DNA from: a virus | IMG/VR virus record: IMGVR_UViG_3300045988_137753 | Span: 1-58,009 of that record | Length of the DNA stretch: 58,009 nucleotides | Strand: one strand, 5' to 3' | Part shown: positions 1 to 40,864 of the stretch, in pieces | How the letters are laid out: every line of letters begins with the position of its first letter | Position numbering within the stretch: position 1 is the first letter of the stretch | Position numbers and translations under genes: made by a program | Notes under the pieces: generated by a model | Database searches by the model: none | Seen by the model: the letters and a program-made list of their open reading frames with translations, nothing else | Told to the model about the DNA's origin: nothing

Positions 1-2
1 AT

Positions 3-113
3 AAAGCTAAAGTTATTAGTCAATGTAAATGTGGATGTACTATAGATGGAAGAGCAAAAGATGAAGTTAGAGTATGGAGTTATGATCCAATAACAGAAGA
101 GGTGAAGCAATGA
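3..113 (+). CDS. small zinc-ribbon protein, 3' part of an ORF that starts at 57882 and crosses the circular junction
   Basis: Frame of ATG 57882 (CPHC..CKCGC) runs through the 55-nt end/start overlap and stops at TGA 111-113; ATGA overlap with next ORF. Confidence 0.5.
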   Translation, partial: KAKVISQCKCGCTIDGRAKDEVRVWSYDPITEEVKQ

Positions 114-4939: not shown

Positions 4940-5338
4940 ATGGAGAAAAGAGAATTACAAGAATATATAGAAACCAAAAGAGAATTAGATATTATAAAGG
5001 ATAAAATAGAGTACCTAGAAGAAAAGAAAACAAGCATTAAAAGTATGATAATAGATGATATGCCAAAAGGTGGAAGTTTTGAAAATGATAGATTAGGAGT
5101 GTTGCTAGGAGAAATAGAAGAATTACTTAATATATACAATGAAAAACAAATAAGATTACTTAAGCAACAAAGGGCAATAGAAAATACAATAGATACATTG
5201 GAAGATGCAGTAGATAGAAATATAATGAGGTTAAGATATATTGACGGATATACGTGGGAAAGACTATGTGTTTTGATGAATTACAGTTGGAATGGAATAC
5301 ATAAAAAGCATAGAAAAATATTAGAAAAAATAAGATAA
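4940..5338 (+). CDS. late-gene transcriptional regulator, sigma-70 region-4-like (ArpU/RinA/DUF1492-like)
   Basis: C-terminal RLRYIDGYTWERLCVLMNYSWNGIHKKHRKILEKI HTH; sits just upstream of the packaging module. Confidence 0.5.
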   Translation: MEKRELQEYIETKRELDIIKDKIEYLEEKKTSIKSMIIDDMPKGGSFENDRLGVLLGEIEELLNIYNEKQIRLLKQQRAIENTIDTLEDAVDRNIMRLRYIDGYTWERLCVLMNYSWNGIHKKHRKILEKIR

Positions 5339-37432: not shown

Positions 37433-38095
37433 TTATTTATCTAATTTGTACCACATACCAGGTATACATCCATCATATATTTCAGATGTATTATTTGTTG
37501 GTACATGGTATATTTTAACTCCTGTTATCTCTATTCTTTCTGTACTTTTTTCTTTTAGGTACAATGTTATTTTTCTAGTTTCTCCAGCTGATATATTTTG
37601 CTCAACACCATTCCATGGTATACAAGTATTGTTTTTATCATACTCTTTAAAATCTATTTCTAAATAATTTATATCATTTCCTGTATTATTAGTCCATGTA
37701 AATTCAAAACTTGGAGAAATTTCATCATCTAGATAAGTTTTTTCTATACTATCAAGTTGTTTAGCTATATATTTTTCAGCTTCTACTTCATTTCCACTAT
37801 AATTTTCAGGTATTTTTAAATTTACACCATTTTGATAATATTTAGCTTCTTCTTCTATTTTCCAGTCGTGGTTATCTAAAAAATTAATCTCATCTTCTGT
37901 TAATAACTTTCTATATGCTTCTGTTAATTCATTTCCTTCTAATCCTTTTAAAGTGGCAATTCTATCTTTTTCAGTCATATGTTTTTCTTCTTTTATAGAG
38001 CTTTCAGCTTTATTCTTATTTATATTATTACTACAACCTACCATACTTACTGCTAATATACTTGCTGCTAATATGCTTGTTATTCTTTTATTCAT
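37433..38095 (-). CDS. lipoprotein (moron)
   Basis: Signal peptide with lipobox AVSMVG-C; RBS AGGGGG 9 nt before the fourth-codon ATG. Confidence 0.7.
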   Translation of the reverse strand: MNKRITSILAASILAVSMVGCSNNINKNKAESSIKEEKHMTEKDRIATLKGLEGNELTEAYRKLLTEDEINFLDNHDWKIEEEAKYYQNGVNLKIPENYSGNEVEAEKYIAKQLDSIEKTYLDDEISPSFEFTWTNNTGNDINYLEIDFKEYDKNNTCIPWNGVEQNISAGETRKITLYLKEKSTERIEITGVKIYHVPTNNTSEIYDGCIPGMWYKLDK

Positions 38096-38128
38096 AAATA
38101 ACATCCCCCTTAATAATTTATAAATATT

Positions 38129-38428
38129 CTATTTTGCTTCTATTAACTCCGTTAGCATTAATTCCAAATTTCCATCATCTTCATCAAAACCCCATACTTC
38201 TAAATACTCCGCATTACTGTCTTTATGTCTCCATATACATTCTAAGTAAAAAATAACAGACCCTATATATATTTTGCAGCATTCTACTTTTTCTTCAAAG
38301 GTTTCGCAATCATATAGGTCGTATATTTTTCCTCCCCAACTGTTAATCATATTTGCGGCAGCCACTAATGTTGTTTCATTAGCCATTAAATAATTGAATA
38401 TATTTTTTCTTTGCGTTTCTTTATCCAT
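38129..38428 (-). CDS. hypothetical acidic 99-aa protein
   Basis: ORF 42 nt downstream of the tnpB-like gene on the same strand. Confidence 0.5.
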   Translation of the reverse strand: MDKETQRKNIFNYLMANETTLVAAANMINSWGGKIYDLYDCETFEEKVECCKIYIGSVIFYLECIWRHKDSNAEYLEVWGFDEDDGNLELMLTELIEAK

Positions 38429-38470: not shown

Positions 38471-39604
38471 TTAATACTGACTTAAGTTAATTGCTGCATT
38501 TAAGTCTCTATCCATTGTATGTCCACATTCAGGGCAGGTAAATATTCTATCTTTAAGTTTAAGTCTATCTTTGCCTGTTCTTGTATGTCCACATTTACTG
38601 CAAGTTTGTGAACTAGGATACCATCTATCAGCCATTACTAATTCTATGCCATATTCTTGTGTTTTATATTGTAATTGTCTTTGGATTTCAAAAAATCCTT
38701 GTTTGCCTATCGCATCTGATAAATGCTTGTTTTTCATCATTCCTTTTACATTTAAGTCTTCTATTACTATCTTTTGAGGTTTCTTTTCTACTAATTGGTG
38801 TGTCATTGTATGTCTATAATTATTTCTAATATCTCTTATTCTATGTTGCAGTTTTAAGATTTGTTTTTCTAATTTGATTATGTTATTAGTTTTATGATAT
38901 GCTTTCCCTTCTTTATTCATATCATATTTTTTACTTACTTGTCTTTGCAATCTTTTTAATCTCTTCTCTAATTTCTTCATCTCAGCAGTTTTGTTAATAT
39001 TCTTATATACTGTACCATCACTAACTATCGCTAAATCTTTAATACCTAGGTCTACACCTAATACAGTTGGATTTAATTCAGGTTTATAATCTTCTTGTTC
39101 TACTCCTACTGATATGTACCAATGCAATCCATCATATGTCACTCTTGGATTAGAGTATTTTTTTACAATAGGTATATAGTTTTTTCTACTTAATTTGACT
39201 ATTCCTATTTTAGGAAGTTTGACTTGATTTTCAGATATTTTTATAGCTTGATAATGTGGCGCAAAGGCTGGAGTTGTTCTATTTCTGCTCTTAAATCTTG
39301 GGTAGGATTTAGCATTGCCCTTTTTTACTTCTCTGAAAAAGTTCTTAAATGCTGTACAAGCATCTGTATAAGCTATAATTAGTGTCATTGCATCACAATC
39401 TTTAAGCCAGTTATTTTCTTTTTTATAAGCGGTTAAATACTTACTCATCCCCATGGCTGATATGAATTTTTCGCCTTTTTCATATCTTTCCTTTTGAAAG
39501 GCTAATGTCCAGTTATATATATGTCTTGCACATCCTGCTTGAAAAAACATTTGTTGTTCTTGTTGTTTATTAGGTTCTAATCTAACTTTGTATGATTTAA
39601 TCAT
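38471..39604 (-). CDS. tnpB: TnpB-type (IS605 OrfB family) RuvC nuclease, array-associated; candidate miniature type-V-like effector
   Basis: KVRLEPNKQQEQ N-terminus, VLGVDLGIKD (RuvC-I), IVIEDLNVKGM (RuvC-II), CSKCGH..CPECGH zinc ribbon, MDRDLNAAINL (RuvC-III). Confidence 0.9.
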   Translation of the reverse strand: MIKSYKVRLEPNKQQEQQMFFQAGCARHIYNWTLAFQKERYEKGEKFISAMGMSKYLTAYKKENNWLKDCDAMTLIIAYTDACTAFKNFFREVKKGNAKSYPRFKSRNRTTPAFAPHYQAIKISENQVKLPKIGIVKLSRKNYIPIVKKYSNPRVTYDGLHWYISVGVEQEDYKPELNPTVLGVDLGIKDLAIVSDGTVYKNINKTAEMKKLEKRLKRLQRQVSKKYDMNKEGKAYHKTNNIIKLEKQILKLQHRIRDIRNNYRHTMTHQLVEKKPQKIVIEDLNVKGMMKNKHLSDAIGKQGFFEIQRQLQYKTQEYGIELVMADRWYPSSQTCSKCGHTRTGKDRLKLKDRIFTCPECGHTMDRDLNAAINLSQY

Positions 39605-39618
39605 TTCTTTTTCCTCCT

Positions 39619-40018
39619 ATACTTGTTATATTTACATTTGTACGCTTCTAAGTTCGTTAACTATTAACTATGTGGTATGGTTTCAATACTTGTTGCATTG
39701 TATATTACATTTGTACATTCTCTTAGTTCTTCATCTATTTGCTCTTTTCTGACTTCGTTTCAATACTTGCTATATTGTATATTACATTTGTACAGAATTA
39801 TTTGAGTATGATAGCTTAATAGTTAATACAGTGTTTCAATACTTGCTATATTGTATATTACATTTGTACTTCTTGAAGAAATCTTGCTTCTCTCCTGGAA
39901 GATACAGTTTCAATACTTGCTATATTGTATATTGCATTTGTACGCTATAGCTTATAACTGTAATGTTATATTGTCCGCAATGTTTCAATACTTGTTATAT
40001 TGTATATTGCATTTGTAC
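39619..40018 (-). CRISPR. CRISPR-like array: five 37-nt repeats plus one truncated repeat, five unique 36-40 nt spacers
   Basis: Repeats GTTTCAATACTTG(C/T)TATATTGTATATT(A/G)CATTTGTAC at 39680-39716, 39757-39793, 39833-39869, 39907-39943 and 39982-40018. Truncated copy at 39619-39643. On the minus strand the repeat ends ATTGAAAC. Confidence 0.8.
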
Positions 40019-40206
40019 TCGTGCAACTTGCAATGCAGTAATGCCAATAGATATAAGTACTGAATAATAATTGTACTAGTTGATATACAAGTACTTTTTA
40101 TTAAGTTTTCAAGGTATCAACATATATCTGTACTAGTTGGTATTACTACAATATAAGTTACTAGCATTGAAAAATATAATAAATTTCTAATAACAAGATT
40201 GTATTA

Positions 40207-40373
40207 GCACAAGTGCAATATACAATATAACAAGTTTCCCTATTCAACGTATCCTCTTTTGCATAAGCTACTCGAGTTGGTATGATACTCCAAGGGCGTA
40301 AATTCGGGTTTGAACATCCCTACATACCGAAATAATCTTTTAAGTGATTATCTTTCGGTTTTTATTCTTTTGT
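40207..40373 (-). ncRNA. candidate tracrRNA-like RNA (anti-repeat 40207-40235 plus structured scaffold)
   Basis: Plus strand GCACAAGTGCAATATACAATATAACAAGT matches 27 of 29 positions of the reverse complement of repeat positions 9-37. The adjacent roughly 130 nt has stems (GTATC..GATAC, AGGG..CCCT, hairpin 40326-40359). Confidence 0.5.
40326..40370 (+). terminator. hairpin plus T-run (terminator-like on the plus strand; 5' stem-loop of the tracr candidate on the minus strand)
   Basis: ACCGAAATAATC / GATTA(TC)TTTCGGT followed by TTTTATTCTTTT. Confidence 0.45.
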
Positions 40374-40380
40374 TACTATT

Positions 40381-40409
40381 ATAATAACATAGTTCTCCAC
40401 TTTGTACAA
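40381..40409 (-). promoter_or_regulatory. candidate sigma-A promoter driving tracr/array/tnpB on the minus strand
   Basis: Minus strand reads TTGTAC-17 nt-TATTAT (overlapping TATAAT). Confidence 0.3.
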
Positions 40410-40476: not shown

Positions 40477-40635
40477 ATGGCTTTGAATGAAAATAAAGAT
40501 AGAATTAATCTTGTTATAGAAAAGGAATATAAAGAACAATTGCAAAAATTAGCAAAAGACAATAGAGTAACCTTATCAAACTTTTGTGCAACTGTACTTG
40601 TGAAATATATAGAAAAAAAGAACCAAGAGAAGTAA
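40477..40635 (+). CDS. ribbon-helix-helix (CopG/Arc-like) DNA-binding protein, 52 aa
   Basis: AAGGTGGTGA RBS; RINLVIEKEYKEQLQKLAKDNRVTLSNFCATVLVKYI fits a beta-alpha-alpha pattern; below the ORF track cutoff. Confidence 0.6.
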   Translation: MALNENKDRINLVIEKEYKEQLQKLAKDNRVTLSNFCATVLVKYIEKKNQEK

Positions 40636-40657
40636 TTTCCCTTGGCTCTTTCTTTTA

Positions 40658-40864
40658 TTAGCAATTATAATATTTATTTTCTATATTATTATATCTCTTT
40701 AGAAGAATATCATTTTCTCCCCAAAATCTTGCTTCTACTTGGTCAATATCAACTTTTTCTTTACAAATTTCTCTAAATAGATTAATTGCACTTACATAAT
40801 CAGTCCAACCACTATATAGTTCTAAACCTTCATTATTTATCCAACTAACTTGAAAATTATTCAT
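40658..40864 (-). CDS. hypothetical 68-aa protein
   Basis: ORF in track; start coupled to the stop of the upstream small gene. Confidence 0.45.
   Translation of the reverse strand: MNNFQVSWINNEGLELYSGWTDYVSAINLFREICKEKVDIDQVEARFWGENDILLKRYNNIENKYYNC

What the first reader, a model, noticed from the sequence alone, without database searches (positions are those of the whole stretch)
40207..40373. Anti-repeat embedded in a structured 160-nt segment, with conflicting strand signals
Seen in sequence: GCACAAGTGCAATATACAATATAACAAGT (40207-40235) is the inverted complement of repeat positions 9-37 and matches the leader-proximal repeat variant (39982-40018) best. Same-strand transcripts of this site and of the array would therefore form a duplex of about 29 bp, leaving 8 nt of the repeat (ATTGAAAC on the minus strand) unpaired next to the spacer. 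Two signals disagree on orientation. On the minus strand the layout is promoter-like TTGTAC-17-TATTAT (40381-40409), scaffold, 3' anti-repeat, AT-rich leader, array, then nuclease gene. That order is type-V-like, and the repeat then ends in the common GAAAC terminus. On the plus strand the anti-repeat is followed by stems and a hairpin with a T-run (40326-40370), which resembles a Cas9-style tracrRNA with its own terminator. The strand actually used decides which end of each spacer is the guide end.
Basis: partly seen in the sequence, partly recalled or inferred. Interest (0 to 1): 0.8.

Follow-up and report, generated by a model that had tools for sequence, protein, structure and literature searches.

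The report
Phage mini-CRISPR with split TnpB guide RNA
The flagged segment is a real tracrRNA gene on the minus strand: it is the scaffold of a transposon (TnpB) guide RNA cut in two, so that a 377-residue nuclease in a phage can use a CRISPR array against rival phages; this is a well-preserved example of a recently described kind of system (TranC), not a new kind.

Summary
40207-40235 is a 29-nt anti-repeat; none is expected by chance. The strand conflict resolves to the minus strand.

Read on that strand, the locus has these parts:
- a promoter-like site
- a small hairpin
- a RAGATH-18 core (Rfam 65 bits, threshold 45)
- the anti-repeat and a leader
- five repeats plus a degenerate sixth
- a 377-aa TnpB-like gene, full-length similar to the IS607-type ISFba1 TnpB (PDB 8IAZ, E = 3e-76)

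Relatives in about 30 phage or metagenome contigs form one clade with arrays. Its members range from unsplit single-guide RNAs to split tracrRNA plus array.

Three lines of evidence fix the strand:
- All 30 distinct repeat/anti-repeat pairs are more stable on the gene strand.
- 22 of 58 base pairs covary.
- The repeat's last 8 nt are not idle: UUGAA pairs with the small-hairpin loop, homologous to pseudoknot PK2 of the solved ISFba1 RNA.

Eleven spacers match rival phages. Ten of the targets carry 5'-TTA, whereas canonical relatives use AGGAG.

No expression or cleavage data exist. The best label is a new member of the TranC class (transposon-CRISPR intermediates).

The parts
40381..40409 (-). 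Promoter-like site for the tracrRNA: -35 TTGTAC, 17 nt, TG-n-TATTAT (TATAAT lies 3 nt further on). The predicted start is near 40374.
   Evidence: though such matches are as common in shuffled sequence. In alignment A1 the -35 (TTGTAC/TTGCAC/TTGCAT) and the -10 keep their position in two unrelated upstream contexts. L007 lacks them; there the scaffold follows the gene's stop codon. Function is inferred, not shown.
40326..40359 (-). 5' stem-loop of the scaffold (ACCGAAAGAUAAUC...GAUUAUUUCGGU).
   Evidence: Conserved in the aligned array-bearing loci of both subclades; it is absent from the two promoter-driven solo guide RNAs of L008. Helices 1-2 are 99-100% paired, with compensatory and U-G changes on the gene strand. 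In canonical relatives it lies directly 3' of the tnpB stop codon. The corresponding 5' region of the ISFba1 guide RNA is disordered and dispensable (PMC11061315, section 10).
40306..40320 (-). Small hairpin GGG-AUGUUCAAA-CCC. Its loop UUCAA (40314->40310) is predicted to pair with UUGAA in the repeat's 3' tag, forming an intermolecular pseudoknot equivalent to PK2.
   Evidence: All 5 pairs are kept in 14 of 14 sequences, with one C-G to U-A swap. Across 116 distinct scaffolds, 102 have a complement of the loop downstream, against 59 +/- 5 in the control, and about nine different loop/tag sequence pairs occur. The position matches PK2 of the ISFba1 cryo-EM structure (PMC11061315, section 10).
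40236..40296 (-). RAGATH-18 core of the scaffold.
   Evidence: Rfam RF03064, 65.3 bits (gathering score 44.9), full model 1-71, minus strand only. The same family scores above threshold on the gene strand in all 11 related loci tested. Its helices covary: GUAUC/GAUAC, GUGUC/GACAC, GUGCC/GGCAC.
40207..40235 (-). Anti-repeat, at the 3' part of the tracrRNA. It pairs with nt 1-29 of each repeat.
   Evidence: In helix 9, 26 pairs are 98.6% paired and 9 show compensatory changes between subclades.
40019..40206 (-). Leader between the anti-repeat and the first repeat. It is conserved among relatives and contains two direct repeats (40067-40086 and 40124-40143).
   Evidence: New spacers appear at this end when close relatives are compared.
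39644..40018 (-). CRISPR array: five 37-nt repeats (GUACAAAUGCAAUAUACAAUAUAACAAGUAUUGAAAC and variants) and five spacers of 36-40 nt. On the minus strand each spacer lies 3' of its repeat.
   Evidence: Rfam CRISPR-DR7 matches on the minus strand fall just below threshold (35.3 against 37 bits).
39619..39643 (-). Degenerate terminal repeat GTACAAATGTAAATATAACAAGTAT. It is followed directly by the AGGAGG ribosome-binding site (39613-39618) of the nuclease gene.
   Evidence: The same arrangement is seen in L001, L003-L006 and L163.
38471..39604 (-). 377-aa TnpB-like RuvC nuclease, the effector.
   Evidence: Pfam HTH_OrfB_IS605 + OrfB_IS605 + Cas12f1-like_TNB. Full-length match to PDB 8iaz_A, E = 3.1e-76. 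D185/E282/D365 and two CxxC motifs are present. It belongs to a monophyletic array-associated clade.
39328..39364 (+). Protospacer inside the effector gene (antisense strand). It is matched by the last spacer of a rival phage's array (L003 s8; 2 PAM-distal mismatches; 5' TTTA). A second site lies at 39426-39461 (last spacer of L163; 3 mismatches; TTTA).
37436..37471 (+). Protospacer matched perfectly by spacers 3 and 4 of L003 (5' TTTA). A further one lies at 40764-40799 (L161 s5; 1 mismatch; TTTA).

Best explanation
This is a compact, phage-borne, type-V-like CRISPR system of the TranC kind (transposon-CRISPR intermediate). Its effector is a 377-aa homologue of IS607-type TnpB.

Its guide is the ancestral TnpB guide RNA (reRNA) cut into two molecules, both transcribed from the window's minus strand:
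- tracrRNA, about 170 nt, roughly 40374 to 40207: a 5' stem-loop, a small hairpin, the RAGATH-18 core and a 29-nt anti-repeat.
- crRNA: a 37-nt repeat followed by a 36-40 nt spacer.

Repeat nt 1-29 pair with the anti-repeat. This rebuilds, in trans and much extended, the last stem of the ancestral scaffold. Within the last 8 nt of the repeat (AUUGAAAC), UUGAA pairs with the loop of the small hairpin, restoring pseudoknot PK2. The spacer then sits where the transposon guide would sit.

The complex is expected to recognise 5'-TTA (mostly TTTA) next to a protospacer and to cut with its single RuvC site. The targets are related temperate phages, so the likely role is competition between phages, or superinfection exclusion by the prophage.

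Shown here, in silico:
- the parts and their strand
- homology to RAGATH-18 and ISFba1 TnpB
- covariation of the structure
- the PAM
- phage targets

Inferred:
- transcription and processing of the RNAs
- assembly of the RNA-protein complex
- DNA cleavage
- how new spacers are acquired
For: Protein:
- Full-length match to ISFba1 TnpB (8iaz_A), E = 3.1e-76, with the catalytic D/E/D and the zinc ribbon conserved.

Scaffold RNA:
- RAGATH-18 lies on the minus strand, directly 5' of the anti-repeat.
- RAGATH-18 is the core of the guide RNA of IS607 TnpB (PMC11061315).
- A model built from the scaffold finds it immediately 3' of the gene in 123 canonical or unsplit relatives.

Evolutionary series inside one monophyletic clade:
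- L008 has promoter-driven single-guide RNAs ending ...GGGAA-GCUUG-AUAA-CAAGU-AUUGAAAC-guide.
- L010 and L016 have the first guide in cis, followed by an array.
- L007 and subclade B have gene, scaffold, anti-repeat, leader, array.
- The window and L001-L006 have the same module circularly permuted.

Structure:
- 99.3% of cells are paired, against 87.2% in shuffles (0 of 500 reach it) and 35-47% when partners are slid.
- 22 pairs have compensatory changes.
- The two subclades have unrelated duplex sequences but keep complementarity.

Strand:
- The gene-strand duplex is more stable in 30 of 30 pairs, by a mean of 8.4 kcal/mol.
- Spacer turnover is polarised towards the tracrRNA/leader end.

Pseudoknot PK2.

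PAM and targets:
- Eleven independent spacers match related phages.
- Ten targets have TTA directly 5' of the protospacer on the side next to ...GAAAC, P about 5e-14.

Co-occurrence and context:
- The repeat occurs only next to this gene: 7 of 7 IMG/VR contigs and 6 of 6 metagenome contigs.
- The element is a phage, and no transposase lies nearby.
Against: - There are no transcript, processing, binding or cleavage data for this locus or any relative.
- Promoter-like matches are no more frequent than in shuffled sequence.
- Single-sequence folding is not significant.
- None of the window's own five spacers has a match in INPHARED. None of the three tested as exact 24-mers matches IMG/VR. The PAM and the targets are therefore inferred from relatives' spacers.
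- No cas1/cas2 was seen, so the route of spacer gain is unknown. The family lists I read were truncated at 25 rows.
- The covariation rests mainly on two subclades plus L007/L008, so few independent events underlie many of the counted cells.
- The side on which the PAM lies would also fit a Cas9-like geometry on the other strand, so it does not fix the strand by itself.
Confidence: 0.85

Rival explanations
1. Cas9-style reading. The segment is transcribed from the plus strand, with the anti-repeat at the 5' end, stems, and its own terminator at 40326-40370. The crRNAs would then be spacer-repeat.
For: The conserved motif beside protospacers would then lie 3' of the protospacer, as it does for Cas9.
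Against: - No Cas9 family was listed among the window's 58 ORFs (lists truncated). The only nuclease next to the array is TnpB-like.
- RAGATH-18 and model R1 match only the minus strand.
- The hairpin covaries with U-G pairs on the minus strand, and in relatives it follows the gene's stop codon.
- The plus-strand duplex is weaker in 30 of 30 pairs.
- Unsplit relatives place the guide 3' of ...AUUGAAAC.
Confidence: 0.02
2. An ordinary IS607 transposon copy. TnpB and its reRNA would serve transposon retention, and the repeats would be incidental or decayed transposon ends.
For: The protein and scaffold are clearly of the IS607 / RAGATH-18 lineage. The closest bacterial relatives are canonical IS607 elements with a MerR-resolvase TnpA.
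Against: - There is no serine recombinase beside the gene.
- The scaffold is not 3' of the gene.
- The 3' end is no longer ...CAACGG but AUUGAAAC.
- The repeat-spacer units are regular.
- Spacers differ between close relatives and match other phages with a TTA motif, not AGGAG.
Confidence: 0.03
3. The array is an orphan phage array that is processed and used, or at least extended, by a host class 1 CRISPR system. Its link with the TnpB-like gene would be secondary, or the array would serve both.
For: The repeat ends in AUUGAAAC, the common 8-nt handle of Cas6-processed class 1 crRNAs (my own knowledge). It scores just under threshold for Rfam CRISPR-DR7. No adaptation genes are seen in the phage, yet spacers turn over in a polarised way.
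Against: - The anti-repeat and the loop/tag pairing covary with the repeat.
- The repeat is found only beside this gene, in 13 of 13 contigs.
- The PAM is on the side expected for a TnpB/Cas12 effector.
- None of the 80 bacterial loci with relatives has an array.

Use of host Cas1-Cas2 for acquisition alone is not excluded, and it is compatible with the main explanation.
Confidence: 0.05
4. The system binds targets but does not cut them (a repressor, as in TldR or Cas12m), or it is a decaying remnant.
For: Nothing here shows cleavage. Some TnpB derivatives are nuclease-dead regulators (PMC13565253).
Against: - The RuvC D185/E282/D365 and the zinc ribbon are intact.
- The exact protein is on 17 contigs read from public assemblies; the four shown come from four different samples, and every array that is complete there is identical to the window's.
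- Targets lie on both strands and inside coding regions of rival phages, not in promoters.
Confidence: 0.05

Closest known systems
ISFba1 TnpB with its RAGATH-18-derived reRNA (IS607 OMEGA system; Ren et al., Cell Res 2024, PMC11061315; PDB 8IAZ)
   Same: - The protein is of the same size and is colinear over its full length (E = 3e-76), with the same catalytic residues.
- The RNA scaffold has the same parts: a 5' stem-loop, a small hairpin, a RAGATH-18 core, a terminal stem, and a short tag that forms PK2 just before a 3' guide.
   Different: - Here the terminal stem is split into two RNAs and lengthened to 29 bp.
- Guides come from a CRISPR array, not from the transposon flank.
- There is no TnpA.
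- The tag is AUUGAAAC rather than ...CAACGG.
- The inferred target motif is TTA rather than AGGAG/GAGGG.
- The scaffold lies upstream of the array and gene, under its own promoter-like site.
TranC, transposon-CRISPR intermediates (Jin et al., Cell 2025, as cited in PMC13565253 and PMC13639567; LaTranC, PDB 9JFO). This includes the phage-borne CauTranC9 (bioRxiv 10.64898/2026.03.27.714800).
   Same: - A TnpB-sized effector sits next to a short CRISPR array.
[quoted passage not shown]
- Origins from IS607 lineages are reported.
- CauTranC9 is in a Caudoviricetes genome, has 5 repeats of 38 bp, no domain expansions, a compact PAM, and spacers against phages. All of this resembles the window.
   Different: - LaTranC is only distantly related (E = 5e-25, C-terminal part only).
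- I could not obtain the TranC clade sequences, so I cannot say whether this is clade 9.
- The preprint found no consistent tracrRNA structure for clade 9 and does not mention RAGATH-18 or IS607. Here the tracrRNA is defined.
Miniature type V effectors with a tracrRNA (Cas12f, Cas12n)
   Same: - A single RuvC effector.
- A tracrRNA with a 3' anti-repeat.
- A crRNA with a 5' repeat and a 3' spacer.
- A T-rich 5' PAM.
   Different: - The effector has no REC/WED expansion.
- Sequence similarity is weak: Cas12f chains at E about 1e-12 and Cas12n at 2e-28, over the RuvC half only.
- No cas1/cas2/cas4 lies nearby.

Membership tests
RAGATH-18 RNA (Rfam RF03064) | Covariance-model score at or above the curated gathering score | tested here: met
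   65.3 bits against 44.9, model positions 1-71 of 71, at 40236-40296 on the minus strand.
RAGATH-18 RNA (Rfam RF03064) | Lies next to an IS607-type tnpB, on the same strand, directly 3' of the gene | tested here: inconclusive
   Same strand and same locus: yes. But in the window it lies 630 nt upstream of the gene, beyond the array. In L007, subclade B and 123 other relatives it is directly 3' of the gene.
IS607 TnpB/reRNA OMEGA system | TnpB protein with an HTH, a RuvC (D-E-D) and a zinc ribbon | tested here: met
IS607 TnpB/reRNA OMEGA system | Single-molecule reRNA whose guide is the DNA flanking the transposon's right end | tested here: not met
   The scaffold ends in an anti-repeat, and the guides are spacers of an array. 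The canonical end ...CAACGG is absent.
IS607 TnpB/reRNA OMEGA system | Serine-recombinase TnpA and a mobile element | tested here: not met
   No resolvase lies beside the gene or among the listed families of the window. The canonical relative L073 has one.
IS607 TnpB/reRNA OMEGA system | G-rich target-adjacent motif (AGGAG or GAGGG) | tested here: not met
   Protospacer flanks give TTA in 10 of 11 cases. L073 keeps AGGAG at its left boundary.
TranC (transposon-CRISPR intermediate) | TnpB-like effector without domain expansion, nested among TnpBs | tested here: met
   377 aa, colinear with ISFba1 TnpB. The clade is nested among canonical IS607 TnpBs.
TranC (transposon-CRISPR intermediate) | Adjacent CRISPR array whose repeat pairs with a tracrRNA homologous to the ancestral reRNA | tested here: met
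   This is sequence and covariation evidence only.
TranC (transposon-CRISPR intermediate) | Guided DNA cleavage with crRNA plus tracrRNA (and with reRNA) | not testable with these tools
   Needs biochemistry. Relatives with unsplit or cis-linked guides (L008, L010, L011, L016) fit dual use.
TranC (transposon-CRISPR intermediate) | Assignment to a published TranC clade (for example clade 9 / CauTranC9) | not testable with these tools
   Jin et al. 2025 and the preprint's supplementary tables are not held.
Type V CRISPR-Cas (Cas12 subtypes that use a tracrRNA) | Single RuvC effector, 5' PAM, crRNA with a 3' spacer, tracrRNA | tested here: met
Type V CRISPR-Cas (Cas12 subtypes that use a tracrRNA) | Membership of a named Cas12 family, and an adaptation module | tested here: not met
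   Only weak, partial similarity to Cas12f and Cas12n chains. No Cas1/Cas2 appears among the listed families (lists truncated).
Type II (Cas9) tracrRNA | A Cas9 gene, and a tracrRNA with a 5' anti-repeat and 3' terminator on the strand of the array transcript | tested here: not met
   No Cas9 family is listed. The strand tests favour the minus strand.

The most novel reading that the evidence does not exclude
One monophyletic clade of gut-phage TnpBs may preserve every step from a transposon guide RNA to a dual-RNA CRISPR system:
- promoter-driven single guides
- a first guide in cis followed by an array
- split tracrRNA plus array
- a permuted operon

In this clade the pseudoknot that locks the guide into the scaffold has become intermolecular, formed between a tracrRNA loop and a crRNA tag. 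The tag changed from the transposon end ...CAACGG to AUUGAAAC, which is the usual class 1 crRNA handle. The target motif changed from AGGAG to TTA.

This would suggest that the array was captured from, or is still extended by, a host class 1 system. It would also suggest that release from the transposon-end constraint allowed the PAM to shorten. If not yet described, it would also define the missing tracrRNA of the smallest known CRISPR effector clade.
Probability: 0.3. Interest if true: 0.75.

Novelty: new member of a known kind. Interest (0 to 1): 0.6.

Why it matters
The guide end of each spacer is the end next to ...AUUGAAAC on the minus strand, and the PAM (TTA/TTTA) lies on that side.
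- It gives a complete, testable parts list for a 377-aa CRISPR-guided nuclease with a short T-rich PAM. That size and PAM are of interest for genome editing.
- The relatives show in natural sequences how a transposon guide RNA was split into tracrRNA and crRNA. They also show which contacts were kept (the terminal stem and PK2) and which were free to change (the tag and the target motif).
- Temperate phages aim these arrays at each other, including at each other's nuclease gene.

Tried and rejected
- Single-sequence folding of either strand was not informative.
- The promoter/terminator scan found no more sites than in shuffled sequence.
- A megablast of the locus against GenBank phages found nothing.
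- The window's five spacers found nothing in INPHARED. Three of them, tested as exact 24-mers, found nothing in IMG/VR.
- A fuzzy-regex repeat finder timed out.
- A first tree run timed out.
- A first, anchor-based test of the pseudoknot picked up spurious anchors and was discarded. I replaced it with a test based on model alignments.
- The Jin et al. 2025 paper and the preprint's supplementary tables are not held, so the TranC clade could not be assigned.
- I considered PAM position as a strand test and rejected it, because it fits both geometries.
- I did not run structure prediction, because the full-length match to 8IAZ made it unnecessary.
Full report
**1. The observation.**
The window carries five 37-nt direct repeats at 39680-40018, spaced 74-77 nt apart. 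An inverted copy of repeat positions 9-37 (plus-strand numbering) lies at 40207-40235.
- Allowing up to 3 mismatches, the 29-mer matches only itself and the two leader-proximal repeats. Shuffled copies of the window give 0.00 matches.
- The predicted repeat/anti-repeat duplexes are 28-29 bp at -31 to -38 kcal/mol, and the last 8 nt of the repeat (AUUGAAAC on the minus strand) lie outside them.

I add a degenerate sixth repeat at 39619-39643, which abuts the AGGAGG ribosome-binding site of the downstream gene. The array thus holds five real spacers.

**2. What sits around it.**
The ORF next to the array (38471-39604, minus strand, 377 aa) has the three Pfam domains of TnpB.
- It aligns over its whole length with chain A of PDB 8IAZ at E = 3.1e-76. 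My reading is that 8IAZ is the cryo-EM structure of ISFba1 TnpB, the IS607-type TnpB guided by a RAGATH-18-derived RNA (PMC11061315).
- D185, E282 and D365 and two CxxC motifs are in place.
- Rfam finds exactly one family above threshold in the whole window: RAGATH-18 at 40236-40296 on the minus strand, 65.3 bits against 44.9. It touches the 5' end of the anti-repeat.

The window is a temperate, contractile-tailed phage with a portal, terminase, sheath, baseplate, integrase, RecT, holin and endolysin. The locus lies just after the lysis genes. No resolvase-type transposase sits beside it, and no Cas1/Cas2 or Cas9 appears among the listed families, although those lists were cut at 25 rows.

**3. 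Relatives.**
A scan of IMG/VR gave 72 loci. Scans of bacterial genomes, of metagenomes and of exact-protein contigs added more.

Every locus whose protein is at least 64% identical to the window's carries an array or guide units, apart from truncated fragments:
- Subclade A (the window and L001-L006) has the order tracrRNA, leader, array, gene.
- L007 has gene, scaffold, anti-repeat, leader, array. Its leader is homologous to the window's.
- Subclade B (L009-L019 and others) has the same order as L007, but a different repeat (GUAACAGAAUAUAUUCCAGUUAAACAAGGAUUAAAAC) and a different, matching anti-repeat.
- L010 and L016 have the first guide fused in cis to the scaffold, followed by repeats.
- L011 and L061 have an unsplit hairpin and a single guide.
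- L008 has two stand-alone guide RNAs with their own TTGACA/TATAAT promoters. Each ends ...GGGAA-GCUUG-AUAA-CAAGU-AUUGAAAC followed by a guide.

In a neighbour-joining tree of 129 distinct proteins, the 20 array-associated tips form one clade with no other member.

The 80 best bacterial relatives are at most 55% identical, and none has an array. One of them, L073 from Terrisporobacter, is a textbook IS607:
- a MerR-resolvase TnpA overlaps tnpB
- RAGATH-18 lies 3' of the gene
- the element ends ...GGCAACGG
- AGGAG lies at the left boundary

The clade A repeat occurs in public collections only beside this gene, in 13 of 13 contigs.

**4. Which strand.**
Four independent lines point to the minus strand of the window.
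- Rfam and my own model R1 match only that strand. In relatives the scaffold continues from the gene's stop codon.
It varies by compensatory and U-G changes that pair only on the gene strand.
- In all 30 distinct anti-repeat/repeat pairs, the duplex is more stable on the gene strand, by 8.4 kcal/mol on average. The differences are G:U wobbles there and A-C mismatches on the other strand.
- Unsplit relatives put the guide directly 3' of ...AUUGAAAC. Close relatives also share gene-proximal spacers and differ at the tracrRNA/leader end, as expected if the leader is upstream.

Single-sequence folding and promoter scans do not discriminate. The -35/-10 upstream of the scaffold does keep its position in two unrelated upstream contexts, and it is missing where the scaffold follows the gene.

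**5. Structure.**
I joined each scaffold and anti-repeat to its own repeat with a GAAA linker (14 distinct sequences, alignment A2).
- RNAalifold predicts the 5' stem-loop, a small hairpin, the RAGATH-18 stems and a 26-pair repeat/anti-repeat helix.
- Adding the five pseudoknot pairs gives 58 pairs. Counting these, 99.3% of cells are standard pairs, against 87.2% in shuffles (0 of 500 reach it) and 35-47% when partners are slid.
- 22 pairs show changes on both sides.

Much of this signal comes from the split between two subclades, so it reflects few independent events. It is nonetheless consistent in every helix.

**6. The eight 'unpaired' nucleotides.**
The loop of the small hairpin (UUCAA, 40314->40310) is complementary to UUGAA in the repeat tag.
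- Subclade B has UUUAA pairing with UUAAA.
- The gene-proximal RNA of L008 has UUCAG pairing with CUGAA.
- Across 116 distinct scaffolds, 102 have a 5-nt complement of their own loop 10-115 nt after RAGATH-18. The control, in which loops are paired with other loci's flanks, gives 59 +/- 5.
- About nine different loop/tag sequence pairs occur. Examples are CGUUG/CAACG, CGUUA/UAACG, CGAUA/UAUCG, CAAUA/UAUUG and UGAUG/CAUCA, normally followed by G and then the element's end.

This matches PK2 of the ISFba1 structure. There, five loop bases of the 5'-flank hairpin pair with the five bases just before the last scaffold nucleotide, and mutating them impairs complex formation (PMC11061315, section 10). 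In the window this pseudoknot would form between two molecules. The register is slightly ambiguous, because GUU/AAC is also possible.

**7. Targets and PAM.**
Of 90 distinct spacers from all arrays, 11 independent ones match sequences outside arrays in related phages.
- Directly 5' of the protospacer, on the spacer-identical strand in gene orientation, eight have TTTA, two have CTTA and one has TTCA.
- The background frequency of TTA is 3.7%, so P is about 5e-14. The other flank shows no motif.
- Canonical RAGATH-18 TnpBs use AGGAG or GAGGG, so the motif has changed.
- The window itself is hit four times, always with TTTA: 37436-37471 (0 mismatches), 40764-40799 (1), and 39328-39364 and 39426-39461 (2 and 3). 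The last two lie inside its own nuclease gene.
- The window's own spacers have no match in INPHARED or, for three exact 24-mers, in IMG/VR.
- The PAM side alone would also fit a Cas9-like reading on the other strand. It shows which spacer end is PAM-proximal, not which strand is transcribed.

**8. How it most likely works, and what it is.**
The ancestral single guide RNA has been cut in the loop of its last stem. The 5' part became a tracrRNA. The 3' arm of that stem, together with the tag, became the CRISPR repeat.

Pairing of the repeat with the anti-repeat, and of the tag with the small-hairpin loop, rebuilds the scaffold around each spacer. The TnpB-like protein then cuts TTA-flanked targets in competing phages.

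This is the TranC concept (Jin et al. 2025, as summarised in PMC13565253 and PMC13639567).

A 2026 preprint describes a very similar phage-borne example, CauTranC9. It has five repeats of 38 bp, no domain expansion, a compact PAM and phage targets. The preprint reports no consistent tracrRNA structure for that clade and does not mention RAGATH-18 or IS607. I could not obtain the sequences needed to test identity.

I therefore file the locus as a new member of a known kind. What this analysis adds:
- a defined RAGATH-18-type tracrRNA
- an intermolecular PK2
- the change of target motif
- a natural series of intermediates

Expression, processing, cleavage and the route of spacer acquisition remain inferred.

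Noticed in passing
L008:1440-1609 and L008:5470-5654: A 204-kb phage contig carries two stand-alone, unsplit guide RNAs. Each has its own TTGACA/TATAAT promoter and lacks the 5' stem-loop. Each ends in a 5-bp hairpin, then AUUGAAAC, then a guide. They lie far from each other, and one is 2.4 kb upstream of the nuclease gene.
   Followed up: partly
L008:5158-5420: After the gene, the scaffold carries a guide in cis. Two truncated 23-25 nt 'mini-repeats' follow (ACAAGTGTAACAAGCACTGAAAC and GTACAAATGTAACATATGCTAAAAC), each followed by a spacer-like stretch. This could be an emerging array or a decaying one.
   Followed up: no
L010:5256-5509 and L016:2879-3074: Hybrid layout: the scaffold's own 3' end (...ACAGGGATTAAAAC) carries the first guide in cis, and normal repeats and spacers follow directly without a leader.
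   Followed up: partly
L011:2530-2600 and L061: Inside subclade B, two loci have an unsplit hairpin whose loop still reads like the anti-repeat (CCTTGT-TTAATTGGAATATATTCTGTTAT-ACAAGG-ATTAAAAC). A single guide and a T-run follow. This looks like a deletion between the anti-repeat and a repeat, that is, a reversion to a single guide.
   Followed up: no
L007:5298-5332: In L007 the anti-repeat is followed immediately by TTGAAAC, which looks like a vestige of the ancestral tag. The window lacks it.
   Followed up: no
window 39328-39364 and 39426-39461; L003:3921-3957; L163:~4953-4988: The gene-proximal (oldest) spacers of two rival phages' arrays match the antisense strand of the nuclease gene in the window and its closest relatives, with a TTTA PAM. 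L003's own gene gave no comparable match to its spacer; L163's own gene was not checked. Phages appear to aim their arrays at each other's nuclease gene.
   Followed up: partly
L017:5702-5764: A 63-nt 'spacer' is identical to the end of the leader of L012/L014. The spacers after it equal the array of L014. Arrays here are also reshuffled by recombination, not only by single-spacer gain.
   Followed up: no
window 39680-40018 (repeat 3' ends): The repeat tag AUUGAAAC is the usual 8-nt handle of Cas6-processed class 1 crRNAs (my own knowledge). The repeats score just under threshold for Rfam CRISPR-DR7 on the minus strand (35.3 against 37 bits). No adaptation genes are seen in the phage. This raises the question of whether a host class 1 system supplies acquisition.
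   Followed up: partly
window 40477-40635 (+) and 40613-40655: A 52-aa Arc-like repressor ORF is divergent from the tracrRNA promoter-like site. It is followed by a 19-bp hairpin flagged as terminator-like on the minus strand.
   Followed up: no
window 38129-38428 (-) and 37433-38104 (-): Two ORFs (99 and 223 aa) lie directly downstream of the nuclease gene on the same strand. They match no Pfam or PHROG family. They are kept in the same position in the four contigs shown that carry the exact protein. One of them holds the protospacer at 37436-37471.
   Followed up: no
window 40067-40086 and 40124-40143: Two 20-nt direct repeats lie in the leader (ATAATTGTACTAGTTGATAT and ATATCTGTACTAGTTGGTAT). 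In alignment A1 the stretch holding 40124-40143 is conserved in subclade A and missing from L007, while the one holding 40067-40086 is kept in L007 too. Their function is unknown.
   Followed up: no
L009:2465-3388: In subclade B the gene upstream of the nuclease encodes an actin-like (ParM/ALP) segregation protein, and an endolysin lies downstream. This hints that these hosts of the system are phage-plasmids.
   Followed up: no
L009_s2 targets in L017/L018:3550-3583: The best-matching targets of this spacer carry TTCA instead of TTTA, plus a mismatch at spacer position 2. More diverged copies keep TTTA. These may be escape mutations.
   Followed up: no
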